Assembly (NCBI GenBank): GCA_964016885.1
Contig: OZ024751.1
Span: 36,146,001 to 36,210,000 of the forward strand
Origin: Eledone cirrhosa
Lineage: Eukaryota
Length of the DNA stretch: 64,000 nt
Reading direction: 5' to 3'
The position numbers were made by a program, and so were the translations under genes. The notes below the pieces were generated by a model. The model ran no database searches and had not been told where the DNA came from. It worked only from the letters and a program-made list of their open reading frames with translations. Below are positions 14,837-52,402 of the stretch, one piece after another. Position 1 is the stretch's first letter, and each line of letters begins with the position of its first letter.

Positions 14837-15096
14837 ATATTGTTATATTTGGGGAGGGTCATATTTGCGTAATATTGCCAGAATTAATAACAGAACACAC
14901 TCACTGTTTGGTTGGTTTTCGCTTCTCGCTGTCTTTTATATATATATATCTGCGATCTAACTTACTCGGTCCTCAATGTTGCCATTGACTGACCGGCGGT
15001 CAAAAATAATACAGATACAATATAGACAAACACATATATATATAGTTTACATAATTTACATAAATCTTTCGTTGCACATCTGCAACATCGTCAGTG
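14837..15096 (-). repeat. Inverted copy of the PLE 3' pLTR (260 bp)
   Basis: Reverse-complement match to 16867-17126 with no mismatch seen by eye. Confidence 0.95.
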
Positions 15097-16591
15097 CCCT
15101 AGTAGACCTATAAGAGGTAGACCCCCCACCATAACCTCAATGGCTAAAAAGACTCCCATAGGAAGGTGGATTGGGTGGACCAAAGCTATACGGACCCCCC
15201 AAAACACTGATCAGGTAAGAAAAATGGTCGCACATGCAATAGGGGCTAGTATCCAAACTACCCTAAAGGGCCACATATTTAAGTTCAATGAAAAAATCTA
15301 CACCCAAAATGAGGGAGCAGCCATCGGCGTCAGCATAGCTGGTGATGTTGCCAACCTTTTCATGGTATGGTGGGAAAGGAGACTTAAAGATCTCCTTAAT
15401 GAAAGCTCCATAGACCTCATCATGTACTCTCGTTATGTAGACGATATCAATATAGTTATAAGAACACCCCCACTAGAGAGCACTAACAAGTTTGATTTAG
15501 AACGTAGCACGATGGAAAGCATCCAGCAGATAGCTAATTCCATACACCAGAGTATAACTGTAACTATAGACTTCCCTTCCAAACACCCTAACAATAGACT
15601 ACCTGTATTAGACACAGAACTCTGGATTAACACTATAGACGAGAGAGCCCAAATTCTCCACTCACACTATGCTAAACCCATGGCCTCCAAATACCTGATA
15701 CTCAAAAACTCAGCAATGTCCAGTAGTGCTAAGTTTAATATTCTGATCGCAGATTTGGTACGAGTGATGAAGAATGTGTCCAGCATGTGCGACCCAACAT
15801 AAATGGAAGGACACATCCAACACTTCATCAACCGCATGCAGTTCTCTGGCTACAACCAAAGAGACAGAGTCAGAGTATACGAAGGAGCCATGGAAAAGTA
15901 TAAGACCCTCATAGAACTGGACATGAAAGGAATTTGCCCACTATACAGGAGCAAATCATGGAATAGCTTAGATAGGGCTAGACATAAGATAGGGAAGGCC
16001 ACATCATGGTACGACAACCAGAGATATCAGAGTGTCATGTTTGTGGACGCCACCCCTGGAGGGAAATTAGCTAACCAGTGTAGAAAGGCCCTGAGAAAGA
16101 CCCACTTAAAAATAAAGGTGGTAGAAAAGCCAGGAACCACCATAAAATCCCTGATCAGCAAAACCTACCCTTTTAAGAAAACCCACTGTACCAATAGGAA
16201 ATGTATCATATGTAAGGTGAACCCCCGGATAAACTGTAAAACTAGAAACGTAATCTATAGCATAAGATGTACAGAGGGTACTTGCAGAAACACGACAACA
16301 ACATACATAGGTGAGACAGCTCGTAGCATAGGTGAAAGGATAGACCAACACTGGGGGGAACTAAAAGGACGAAAAAACGGGTCAGTACTATACGAACATG
16401 CTAGACAACAACATGACGGTAACATAGACAACATAGAAATTAGAATAATATCTAAACATAGGAATGACCCAGCAGATAGGCAAATCAGAGAGGCCAGTGA
16501 AATAGAAATTAGAAGACCAAAGCTAAACAGAAAGAATGAGTGGAACAACAACAACACCCAAATAAACAACACTGACCTAAGAGAAGTATAA
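15095..16591 (+). pseudogene. PLE polyprotein: C-terminal part of reverse transcriptase, Cys linker, GIY-YIG endonuclease; single in-frame TAA at 15800-15802
   Basis: RT motifs YTQNEGAAIGVSIAGDVANLFM, RYVDDI, LPVLDT, HYAKP; linker CTNRKCIIC...C; endonuclease VIYSIRCTEGTC...YIGETARSIGERIDQH...EH...REA...LN. ORFs 15140-15802 and 15803-16591 share one frame, which stays open back to the inversion junction. RT motif A is absent. Confidence 0.93.
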
Positions 16592-50700: not shown

Positions 50701-50728
<28 letters not shown>

Positions 50729-50890
50729 AATTAGTATATCTACCAACATATTTATACAGAAGTATACTTATGCTAGCAAGATATAGGTTTTGTCTTAGTA
50801 ACTTTGTGGTTCAATACAAAAATGTAGAACAAATATATGATAGACGTAAAATAAGAACATTATAATAATTAACTTACTTACTTAAGTTTC

Positions 50891-50953
50891 ACTCCAACTA
50901 ATTAGTTTCTGAAAGGGGATATACATGGAGAATTCCTTTCTTCATCAGGGAGT
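50891..50953 (-). ncRNA. Type I hammerhead motif (H7A)
   Basis: ACTCC-CTGATGA-A-GAAAGG...CCTTTC-A-GAAA-CTAATTAG-TT-GGAGT. Confidence 0.87.
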
Positions 50954-51304
50954 CAATTCTCTGCTAGGATCCCTGGCGATAGGCGGACACAGGGATCTCA
51001 AACAAAAATAATACAGTGAATGGAAAAGAAGCAAGTGTTAAAAAGACAGTAGCCAAAATATTATTATGAATCATAGCAGTAATTCAGGCAAATTTTTACT
51101 CAACAAATAATTTAACACCCACTCCTCACTGATTAACCTCGATGTCACGTGATTGATTCTTTTGAATTTACCACTGACTCGGAAGGTAGTGAAATGTTCA
51201 GTGTCTTGAAATTTAGTCCGCGCTTGCTTCTTTTCCATTCACTGTATTATTTTTGTTTGAGATCCCTGTGTCCGCCGATCGCCAGGGATCTTAGCAGAGA
51301 ATTG

Positions 51305-51382
51305 ACTTCCTGATGAAGAAAGGAATTCTCCATGGTTTAGAACACTATGTATATCCCCTTTCAGAAACTAATTAGTTGGAGT
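51305..51382 (+). ncRNA. Type I hammerhead motif (H7A)
   Basis: ACTTC-CTGATGA-A-GAAAGG...CCTTTC-A-GAAA-CTAATTAG-TT-GGAGT. Confidence 0.87.
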
Positions 51383-51417
51383 GAAACTTAAGTATTATAA
51401 TTTTCTTATTTTACGTC

Positions 51418-51447
<30 letters not shown>

Positions 51448-51453
<6 letters not shown>

Positions 51454-52197
51454 TAAGTAAGGAAAAAAATTTTTTTTAAATTTTTTTAAAAAAATATTTT
51501 CTTATTTTACGTCCTTTATATTATTGTTCTGCATTCTCCTGCATTGAACCACCTAGGTACTATGACATAACCTGTGTATTTGCTGGCATGGGCGTGCATC
51601 TGTGCGCTTATGTTAGTTGATATATTAAATTATCTATATTTATCTCCAAATCACTGATTTGTCGAGCAAACTTGTCAAAACCACTTCTAAAAAAAATTTT
51701 TTTTGGGGTGTTAGTAGGCGTCAGTCATCTTACCATCCCATTCCTTCTAACTAGCCTCTGTGTCACGTGATTGATTCTTTAGAATCGGCCATTTGACTTG
51801 AAGCAGTGAGAATTTCGGTACATAGAATCCAGTCCTCGCAAGCTGTTCGATCTACCGAATTATTATTATTTTTATATGAGCCGCCAGTGTCCGCGCATTG
51901 CCTGGAGACTTAACTGAGAATAGACTTCCTGATGACGCAATGAATTCTCGACAGTTGGATTACGTAACTGTCTTTATCCCATTGCAGAAACTAATTAGTT
52001 GGAGTGAAAATTTAAGTAAGGAAAAAAATTTTTTTTAAATTTTTTTAAAAAAATATTTTCTTATTTTACGTCCTTTATATTATTGTTCTGCATTCTCCTG
52101 CATTGAACCACCTAGGTACTATGACATAACCTGTGTATTTGCTGGCATGGGCGTGCATCTGTGCGCTTATGTTAGTTGATATATTAAATTATCTATA
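51448..52197 (+). mobile_element. H7 variant B: 559-nt non-coding unit in partial tandem
   Basis: ~190-bp direct repeat 51448-51638 / 52007-52197 (offset 559); one HHR; no ORF; (TA)n flanks. Confidence 0.88.
51924..52005 (+). ncRNA. Type I hammerhead motif (H7B)
   Basis: ACTTC-CTGATGA-C-GCAATG...CATTGC-A-GAAA-CTAATTAG-TT-GGAGT. Stem II covaries with H7A. Confidence 0.9.
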
Positions 52198-52402
52198 TAT
52201 ATATATATATATATATATTGGTAAACGGAAAAGAAAATGCTGAAAAATTGTTCACAGTGAAAAATAATTTAATTAGGAATAAGTGAAAATTAGTAATAGT
52301 ATTGGTTAGTATTCAGCTTTGGTTTTAAGTTTTACCGGTTGCGCATTTTTAATGCTTTTCAAAAATAATTTTGAGATAGAGCGTCCGTGATGTTTGCTCT
52401 AA

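What the first reader, a model, noticed from the sequence alone, without database searches (positions are those of the whole stretch)
50725..52197. H7 hammerheads: compensatory stem II changes and a candidate loop II / upstream pseudoknot
Seen: variants A and B keep CTGATGA, GAAACTAATTAGTT and stem I, while stem II changes from GAAAGG/CCTTTC to GCAATG/CATTGC (two compensatory pairs). Both keep AATTCTC at the start of the large loop II and GAGAAT(T) just 5' of stem I, which are complementary over 6-7 bp. Similar complementarity appears in H6 (GAAATG 29041 / CATTTC in loop II) and more weakly in H10 (TGTAA/TTACA). Established: stem I-loop II tertiary contacts accelerate natural HHRs. Inference: a pseudoknotted HHR subtype under selection, cleaving at an unusual GUU triplet.
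Basis: partly seen in the sequence, partly recalled or inferred. Interest (0 to 1): 0.75.

Follow-up and report, generated by a model that had tools for sequence, protein, structure and literature searches.

The report
Tail-braced hammerhead in Penelope-type retrozymes
Thousands of small jumping repeats in this animal genome carry a hammerhead self-cutting RNA motif with an extra-long second arm, and matched mutations show that a short pairing between that arm and the RNA just upstream has been kept by evolution; it likely braces the cutting fold, a trick known from other hammerheads, but cutting has not been tested.

Summary
Observation confirmed: three type I hammerhead copies, two compensatory stem II changes, a 6-7 bp tail/loop complementarity and a GUU site. 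The window alone cannot show selection on the pseudoknot, because variants A and B share the same pairing. Genome-wide it holds. The family has 9,158 pattern hits. Across 62 insertions no pair-breaking change lies on an internal branch (11 on tips), and one branch carries a compensatory change. Sister families with unalignable monomers use GGAAA/UUUCC or GAGC/GCUC and GAGU/ACUC at the same spacing. 'Loop II' is really an internal loop capped by a further hairpin. The host element is a 520-560 nt non-coding retrozyme with Penelope-type signatures: (TA)n targets, tandem and inverted arms, and two fixed 3' ends. Pseudoknot braces, retrozymes and tails are all known. I found no description of this build in animal type I hammerheads. 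No RNA or cleavage data; no autonomous partner found; H6 and H10 are inconclusive. The scan noted this family (e1-8664355) and a similar brace in another genome (e1-7804778) before. New variant of a known kind; interest 0.5.

The parts
50722..51113 (-). Variant A insertion, left inverted arm; 3' end at the 'long' site (+174 from the predicted cut), abutting (TA)n; carries internal deletions
50891..50961 (-). Hammerhead copy 1: tail 50961-50955, core 50948-50942, loop strand 50934-50928, predicted cut between 50896 and 50895; hairpin IIb lost by a 15-nt deletion
51111..51426 (+). Variant A insertion, right arm; 3' end at the 'short' site (+62), abutting (TA)n
51260..51293 (+). Hairpin upstream of the hammerhead; related subfamilies keep a GTCCNCGC word in its loop, and a second such word lies about 55 nt upstream (51216)
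51297..51303 (+). Pseudoknot 5' strand (tail), copy 2
51305..51382 (+). Hammerhead copy 2: stem I 51305-51309/51378-51382, core 51310-51316, A.A at 10.1/11.1, stem IIa 51318-51323/51357-51362, pseudoknot loop strand 51324-51330, IIb 51331-51349, GAAA 51364-51367, palindromic stem III, predicted cut 51377/51378 (GUU)
51448..52202 (+). Variant B insertion: 1.35 units of the 559-nt monomer, starting 7 nt after the predicted cut and ending at the 'long' site (+202) in (TA)n; 196-nt direct repeat
51762..51769 (+). GTCACGTG word kept in all 8 monomer clusters (also at 51144); candidate internal promoter element (E-box label recalled, untested)
51916..51921 (+). Pseudoknot 5' strand (tail), copy 3
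51924..52005 (+). Hammerhead copy 3: core 51929-51935, C.A at 10.1/11.1, stem IIa 51937-51942/51980-51985, pseudoknot loop strand 51943-51949, IIb from 51950, GAAA at 51987, predicted cut 52000/52001 (GUU)

Best explanation
This is a type I hammerhead motif in a high-copy non-coding retrozyme, and a 4-7 bp pairing between the sequence 5' of stem I and an internal loop of an extended stem II has been kept by selection; it likely acts as a pseudoknot brace that holds stems I and II side by side for self-cleavage. Shown: core, stems, palindromic stem III, conserved and covarying tail/loop pairing, Penelope-type insertion structure. Inferred: (1) both pseudoknot strands lie on the 'enzyme' half of the RNA and would pair first during transcription, pre-organising it; (2) the weak palindromic stem III would be completed by a second copy (double hammerhead), since a lone copy is predicted to misfold; (3) cutting at GUU would release unit-length RNA that circularises; (4) a Penelope-like RT/endonuclease supplied in trans would start at two fixed sites 3' of the cut, at a break in (TA)n, and copy across the uncut or re-joined site to give tandem and inverted insertions.
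For: Abundance: 9,158 exact pattern hits, reversed control 0. In 22 hand-picked subfamily representatives the five core pseudoknot pairs are intact in 22, 22, 22, 22 and 21 rows, and one pair changes G-C to A-U. Over 62 separate insertions, 54 pair 5/5 and 60 pair at least 4/5. Internal branches carry 0 pair-breaking and 2 compensatory substitutions; tips carry 11 breaking and 7 pair-keeping ones (7.9 breaking expected on internal branches by length, Poisson P about 4e-4). Sister family G (2,640 hits): C-G in 11 and U-A in 11 of 22 rows, none unpaired; one event on the tree, support 100/100. Fully paired copies: E 33 of 34 (GGAAA/UUUCC), G 32 of 36, D 12 of 18. M, E and G monomers do not align by blastn, yet the helix starts 7-9 nt and 7-11 nt from the core in M, D and all but one E copy. 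Swapping tails between families mostly weakens the duplex. Element: two fixed 3' ends into (TA)n; 35 of 36 classifiable inverted insertions have one short and one long end. Literature: pseudoknot loss lowers hammerhead rates 20- to more than 100-fold and compensatory mutants rescue (PMC3088659).
Against: No cleavage or RNA data. Independent compensatory events are few: one in family M, one in G; the rest are between-family differences. The internal-versus-tip contrast is not significant by Fisher tests (p 0.19; p 0.11-0.66, where one subfamily was misaligned). In one search the 5-mers were picked by likeness to the common motif, which favours conservation. The sixth pair fails in 12 of 22 rows. 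The duplex beats 95% of nearby 11-mers in only 11 of 16 representatives, and some swapped pairs are as stable as the native ones. The same helix can form as a plain nested hairpin, with the core paired (P>0.5) in 4 of 11 cases. 5' truncations cluster at +1..+20 (18 of 150) but only 2 lie within 3 nt of the predicted cut. No autonomous partner among 50 GIY-YIG loci. In an anole PLE, hammerhead mutants did not affect insertion in vitro (PMC11167929).
Confidence: 0.7

Rival explanations
1. The pairing is selected, but as a folding guide or brake: a nested hairpin that forms during transcription and delays or blocks cleavage, so that RNA with an intact 3' tail survives for reverse transcription.
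For: In nested-only folding the tail/loop helix forms with P 0.63-1.00 in 11 of 11 transcript prefixes, and stays dominant over stem IIa in the full motif for 3 of 11. Every terminal copy needed a template that was uncut or re-joined at the site. GUU is not one of the two fastest triplets (PMC3138052).
Against: The core-sequestering extension is not conserved (core paired 0.06-0.42 in 7 of 11 prefixes). The spacing from the core is tight on both arms, as a brace would need. The folding program cannot score pseudoknots.
Confidence: 0.17
2. The folded motif, pseudoknot included, is kept mainly as a binding or assembly platform for the borrowed Penelope protein; cleavage is slow, protein-assisted or dispensable.
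For: The anole PLE hammerhead cleaved only with protein, and its mutants still inserted (PMC11167929). PLE minimal hammerheads are slow in vitro (PMC4209133). Here 10.1/11.1 is a mismatch and the monomer is predicted 2.5 kcal/mol off the active fold.
Against: Catalytic core, A15.1-U16.1 and a cleavable H17 are kept in five families with different stems (the core was part of the search patterns). Arrays of up to 28 near-identical units fit a circular template.
Confidence: 0.09
3. The complementarity is inherited chance: a purine-rich word and a pyrimidine-rich word conserved for unrelated reasons.
For: Short, low-complexity words; few independent compensatory events; non-significant Fisher tests.
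Against: Both strands change together in M and G, and different word pairs sit at the same place in unalignable families.
Confidence: 0.04

Closest known systems
Pseudoknot-braced hammerheads of types I-III (Perreault et al. 2011, PMC3088659; passages and section 8 read; figures and supplements not seen)
   Same: A Watson-Crick pairing between the stem I and stem II sides replaces the loop-loop contact; about 40% of their hammerheads; it can form without the substrate strand.
   Different: The tested cases I read are type II (loop I with 3' tail) and the human C10 motif. Here the acceptor is an internal loop of a long stem II capped by another hairpin, combined with a palindromic stem III, in an animal retroelement. 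Their Figures 2B and S4 may hold a similar type I case.
[quoted passage not shown]
   Same: An extended helix with an internal loop and a capping hairpin; the loop's 5' strand makes a Watson-Crick pseudoknot.
   Different: Mirror image: there the internal loop is in helix I and pairs with loop II in a type III motif; here it is in helix II and pairs with the 5' tail of a type I motif.
Metazoan non-LTR retrozymes (Cervera and de la Pena 2020, PMC7229834, parts 2-3 of 6 read; Li et al. bioRxiv 10.64898/2026.07.22.740005, abstract and section 14 read)
   Same: Non-coding, low-GC tandem repeats with one type I hammerhead per unit, thousands of copies, structured monomer, PLE link.
   Different: Monomers are longer (520-560 nt against about 170-450 nt). 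Their hammerheads have short helix II with non-Watson-Crick loop contacts or none. Circular RNA was shown there and not here.
PLE hammerheads and PLE insertion structure (PMC4209133 parts 1-2 of 4; PMC11167929 parts 1-2 of 4; PMC8557442 and PMC3846280 passages)
   Same: Short stem I, longer helix II, extra nucleotide after A9, palindromic helix III; partial tandems, inverted arms, optional tail on one end, two RT start sites, microsatellite targets.
   Different: PLE hammerheads are described as lacking loop-loop contacts (PMC7761336, passages). G10.1-C11.1 is flanked by an extra A on the 3' side too. The tail is about 112-122 nt against 30-40 nt. No ORF.
PK hammerhead of Zhan et al. 2024 (PMC11300833; passages read)
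   Same: A hammerhead core with a pseudoknot.
   Different: There the pseudoknot replaces helix II; here helix II is present and covaries, so this is not that class.

Membership tests
Type I hammerhead ribozyme | Core CUGANGA ... GAAA ... UH with stems I-III, stem I open | tested here: met
   stems covary
Type I hammerhead ribozyme | 10.1-11.1 pair directly on the core | tested here: not met
   C.A (49) or A.A (13) in 62 insertions, followed by G-C; mismatches here are tolerated in some natural motifs (PMC3088659 section 8)
Type I hammerhead ribozyme | Match to an Rfam hammerhead model | tested here: not met
   0 hits at gathering score; none at E<=10
Type I hammerhead ribozyme | Self-cleavage after H17 | not testable with these tools
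   only indirect: 5' truncations cluster at +1..+20, not at the site itself
Pseudoknot-braced hammerhead (Perreault 2011) | At least 4 bp of conserved, covarying pairing between stem I side and stem II side | tested here: met
Pseudoknot-braced hammerhead (Perreault 2011) | Rate drops on disruption and is rescued by compensation | not testable with these tools
   needs kinetics
PK hammerhead (Zhan 2024) | Helix II replaced by the pseudoknot | tested here: not met
   helix IIa 98.5% paired with both-side changes
Metazoan non-LTR retrozyme | Non-coding tandem units with one type I hammerhead each, high copy, low GC | tested here: met
Metazoan non-LTR retrozyme | Structured monomer | tested here: met
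   circular fold z -3.2 to -6.3 against 20 shuffles for 3 monomers
Metazoan non-LTR retrozyme | Expressed as circular RNA | not testable with these tools
   no RNA run was available to lay
Non-autonomous Penelope-like element | Partial tandems, inverted arms, optional tail, microsatellite target | tested here: met
Non-autonomous Penelope-like element | Homology to the pLTR of an autonomous PLE | tested here: inconclusive
   none in 50 GIY-YIG loci, out of 10,597 first-look candidates

The most novel reading that the evidence does not exclude
A distinct, evolutionarily old hammerhead subtype of animal Penelope-type elements: a dimer-dependent type I ribozyme whose enzyme half is pre-folded by a Watson-Crick brace between the 5' tail and an internal loop of a long helix II. 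It occurs in at least four unalignable retrozyme families (more than 13,000 pattern hits), is missed by Rfam, and is tuned in this family by a GUU site that extends the stem III palindrome onto A14.
Probability: 0.45. Interest if true: 0.65.

Novelty: new variant of a known kind. Interest (0 to 1): 0.5.

Why it matters
The hammerheads of animal Penelope-like elements are usually described as minimal, slow and without tertiary contacts, and their role is open. A brace kept by compensatory change argues that the folded ribozyme is under selection in these parasites. The natural variants (GAGAA/UUCUC, GGAAA/UUUCC, GAGC/GCUC, GAGU/ACUC; GUU against GUA) give a ready-made mutant and rescue panel. 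Motifs with 40-60 nt between the core halves escape the Rfam models, so such families are probably undercounted. The near-strict one-short, one-long ends of inverted insertions give a clean genomic read-out of how the borrowed RT primes on the two sides of a break.

Tried and rejected
Rfam: nothing. Expression: no RNA holder listed; laid DNA contigs only, and the two low-depth holders from other organisms were not used as evidence. Metagenome scan: one hit, in bacterial-looking DNA, ending in GUG with a misplaced stem, taken as chance. Autonomous partner: none in 50 GIY-YIG loci; the copy near the L155 ORF lies beyond that element's own hammerhead and a TA tract. Naiad link: Naiad 'HHR_half_core' entries have the core halves 35-50 nt apart (PMC8557442), which resembles this motif, but I found no Naiad protein in my loci and saw no sequences; earlier AI notes ascribe those entries to a differently wired hammerhead, so I dropped it untested. 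H6 and H10 pseudoknots: inconclusive. Internal-versus-tip Fisher tests: not significant. A triple helix with the U-rich 3' loop strand: fits D and E by eye but not M or G; speculation only. Lunse et al. 2017 (PMC5785218) is not held. Searches for a printed description of this build found none: (0 papers), and 'pseudoknot' does not occur in the 2026 retrozyme preprint. Figures and most supplements were not seen and may bear on novelty.

Full report
OBSERVATION. The interval holds three copies of one hammerhead motif: cores at 50948 (-), 51310 (+) and 51929 (+). Stem I has 5 bp, stem II changes from GAAAGG/CCTTTC to GCAATG/CATTGC (two both-side changes), and the site is GUU. The tail GAGAAT(T) and the loop word AATTCTC are present as stated: 7 pairs in A, 6 in B. 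Folding and covariation show that 'loop II' is an internal loop closed by a further hairpin, IIb (5 of 5 IIb pairs have both-side changes). Copy 1 lost IIb by a 15-nt deletion. An extra nucleotide sits on each side of stem II, giving C.A or A.A at 10.1/11.1. Stem III with the site is a 12-nt palindrome. Rfam sees nothing.

THE ELEMENT. A pattern made of the two core halves has 9,158 hits in the 3.0 Gb genome and 0 for the reversed control. Copies lie in tandem at 521-571 nt spacing; subfamily monomers are 68-74% identical at the extremes and fold well as circles (z -3.2 to -6.3, 20 shuffles each). No ORF is linked. 3' ends fall at two fixed sites, about +62 and +174 from the predicted cut (+80 and +202 in B), and run into (TA)n. 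Of 84 complete insertions, 44 are inverted with both 3' ends outward; 36 of these could be classed at both ends, and 35 have one short and one long end. The exception is this window, where an A insertion (long/short) and a B insertion are stacked; 8 had an unclassed end. These are Penelope-like (PLE) signatures: a tail on one of the inverted repeats (PMC3846280, PMC8557442, passages) and two RT start sites that bound the tail (PMC11167929, parts 1-2 of 4). The tail here is longer, about 112-122 nt. A 2026 preprint derives animal retrozymes from PLE termini (abstract and section 14). I found no autonomous partner in 50 GIY-YIG loci out of 10,597 candidates.

IS THE PSEUDOKNOT REAL? A and B share the same core letters, so the window cannot decide. 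In 22 hand-picked subfamily representatives the five core pairs hold in 22, 22, 22, 22 and 21 rows; a sixth holds in 10. One clade changed G-C to A-U on both strands. Over 62 separate insertions, 54 pair 5/5. Internal branches, which stand for lineages that went on copying, carry 2 compensatory and 0 breaking substitutions; tips carry 11 breaking and 7 pair-keeping ones. By branch length 7.9 breaking changes were expected internally (Poisson P about 4e-4), but the Fisher test gives p 0.19, and the 5-mers were chosen by likeness to the common motif. An earlier column-based test was not significant (p 0.11-0.66) and had one subfamily misaligned. Looser patterns uncovered sister families with the same build: D (18 of 25 hits), E (1,357 hits), G (2,640 hits, a few of other kinds) and an old family C with few decayed copies. 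M, E and G monomers share no blastn match; D has one weak match to M. E uses GGAAA/UUUCC (33 of 34 copies fully paired), D GAGAA/UUCUC (12 of 18), G GAGC/GCUC or GAGU/ACUC (32 of 36) (copies, not independent events). In G the fourth pair is C-G in 11 and U-A in 11 of 22 rows, which is one event on the tree. The helix starts 7-9 nt before and 7-11 nt after the core in M, D and all but one E copy, and mostly 6-7 and 6-7 nt in G. Tail swaps between word types mostly weaken the duplex, with exceptions; the native duplex beats 95% of nearby 11-mers in 11 of 16 representatives. Taken together the pairing is under selection, on few independent events but at several levels of divergence.

H6 AND H10. 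H6 is a high-copy family with a long stem III and other spacing; its relatives are too similar to inform. H10 has the same general build with a palindromic stem III and GUC, but the tail reads TGTAA in only 10 of 26 rows. Both are inconclusive.

MECHANISM (inferred). In known hammerheads a pseudoknot between the stem I and stem II sides raises the rate by 20- to more than 100-fold and forms without the substrate strand (PMC3088659, passages). Here both strands lie on the enzyme half and are predicted to pair as soon as they are made (P 0.63-1.00 in 11 of 11 prefixes). A lone copy is predicted to pair its core with the stem III strand, 2.5 kcal/mol below the active fold, while two palindromes give a -10.8 kcal/mol duplex. 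This fits the double-hammerhead mode of animal type I motifs (PMC4209133, PMC7229834), although invertebrate retrozyme motifs often cut as monomers (PMC7761336). GUU is fixed in 62 of 62 M insertions, whereas D, E and G mostly have GUA. GUU is cleavable but not among the two fastest triplets (PMC3138052, passages), and U17 extends the palindrome onto A14, a possible brake. RT starts 3' of the cut and crosses it, so the template was circular or uncut there. An E array of 28 near-identical units across both arms fits a circle. 5' truncations cluster just after the cut (18 of 150 at +1..+20, p 1.6e-5 against uniform) but only 2 lie within 3 nt of it, and TA microhomology could contribute; this is weak support for cleavage in vivo, and only partly bears out note e1-8664355.

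RIVALS. The same helix could be a nested folding guide or brake, though the core-sequestering extension is not conserved. The fold could be mainly a protein platform: an anole PLE hammerhead needed protein and was dispensable for insertion in vitro. Chance is unlikely.

COMPARISON AND NOVELTY. Pseudoknot braces are known in all three hammerhead types. The nearest build is the mirror-image type III motif of HDV-like RNAs (PMC7936874, passages). It is not the PK hammerhead in which helix II is replaced (PMC11300833, passages). PLE hammerheads are described as lacking loop-loop contacts. Searches found no description of a type I motif with the 5' tail pairing into an internal loop of helix II; figures, most supplements and Lunse et al. 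2017 were not available. The scan's own notes record this family and a similar brace elsewhere; these are unchecked and add no independent support. Verdict: a real, selected structural variant in a known class of element; new variant of a known kind; interest 0.5.

Noticed in passing
L001-L117 (family M insertions): 35 of 36 classifiable inverted insertions have one short and one long 3' end; each end lies just 3' of a predicted hairpin. The anole in vitro study saw no strand difference in start sites, so the near-strict asymmetry is a mechanistic clue.
   Followed up: partly
15-16 nt after the predicted cut (window 52015 region): A splice-donor-like GT(A/G)(A/T)G word follows the cut in 153 of 164 M copies, 15 of 18 D, 10 of 31 G and 0 of 32 E by my pattern; possibly a relic of the PLE 5' intron.
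   Followed up: no
window 51216, 51832, 51889: GTCCNCGC occurs twice per monomer, each in a predicted hairpin loop upstream of the hammerhead, across subfamilies; candidate protein-binding words.
   Followed up: no
G000:C1:156425779-156438442: Family E array of 28 units at a 457-nt period, 19 on one strand and 9 on the other, sharing a variant not seen in the other listed E hits; looks like rolling-circle copying of one template.
   Followed up: no
L148, L149, L155, L156, L159: ORF-bearing PLEs (RT plus C-terminal GIY-YIG, up to 938 aa) flanked by a minimal hammerhead with the U3-A8 core variant.
   Followed up: partly
window 15026-16588 (+): Broken PLE-like RT/endonuclease reading frames; weak RVT_1 match.
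   Followed up: no
window 18688, 21010, 21562, 21701, 22308, 8180: Further hammerhead cores of other families; the window holds several unrelated hammerhead repeats.
   Followed up: no
window 63125 (H10) and L283-L307: High-copy family (2,356 first-look candidates) with long stem II, palindromic stem III and GUC; copies often begin just upstream of the core after a TA tract.
   Followed up: partly
L036:2103-2217 and G000:C1:48836225, 61444034, 64307877: Single examples of still other long-stem-II hammerhead families, with pyrimidine-rich loop words at the pseudoknot position.
   Followed up: no
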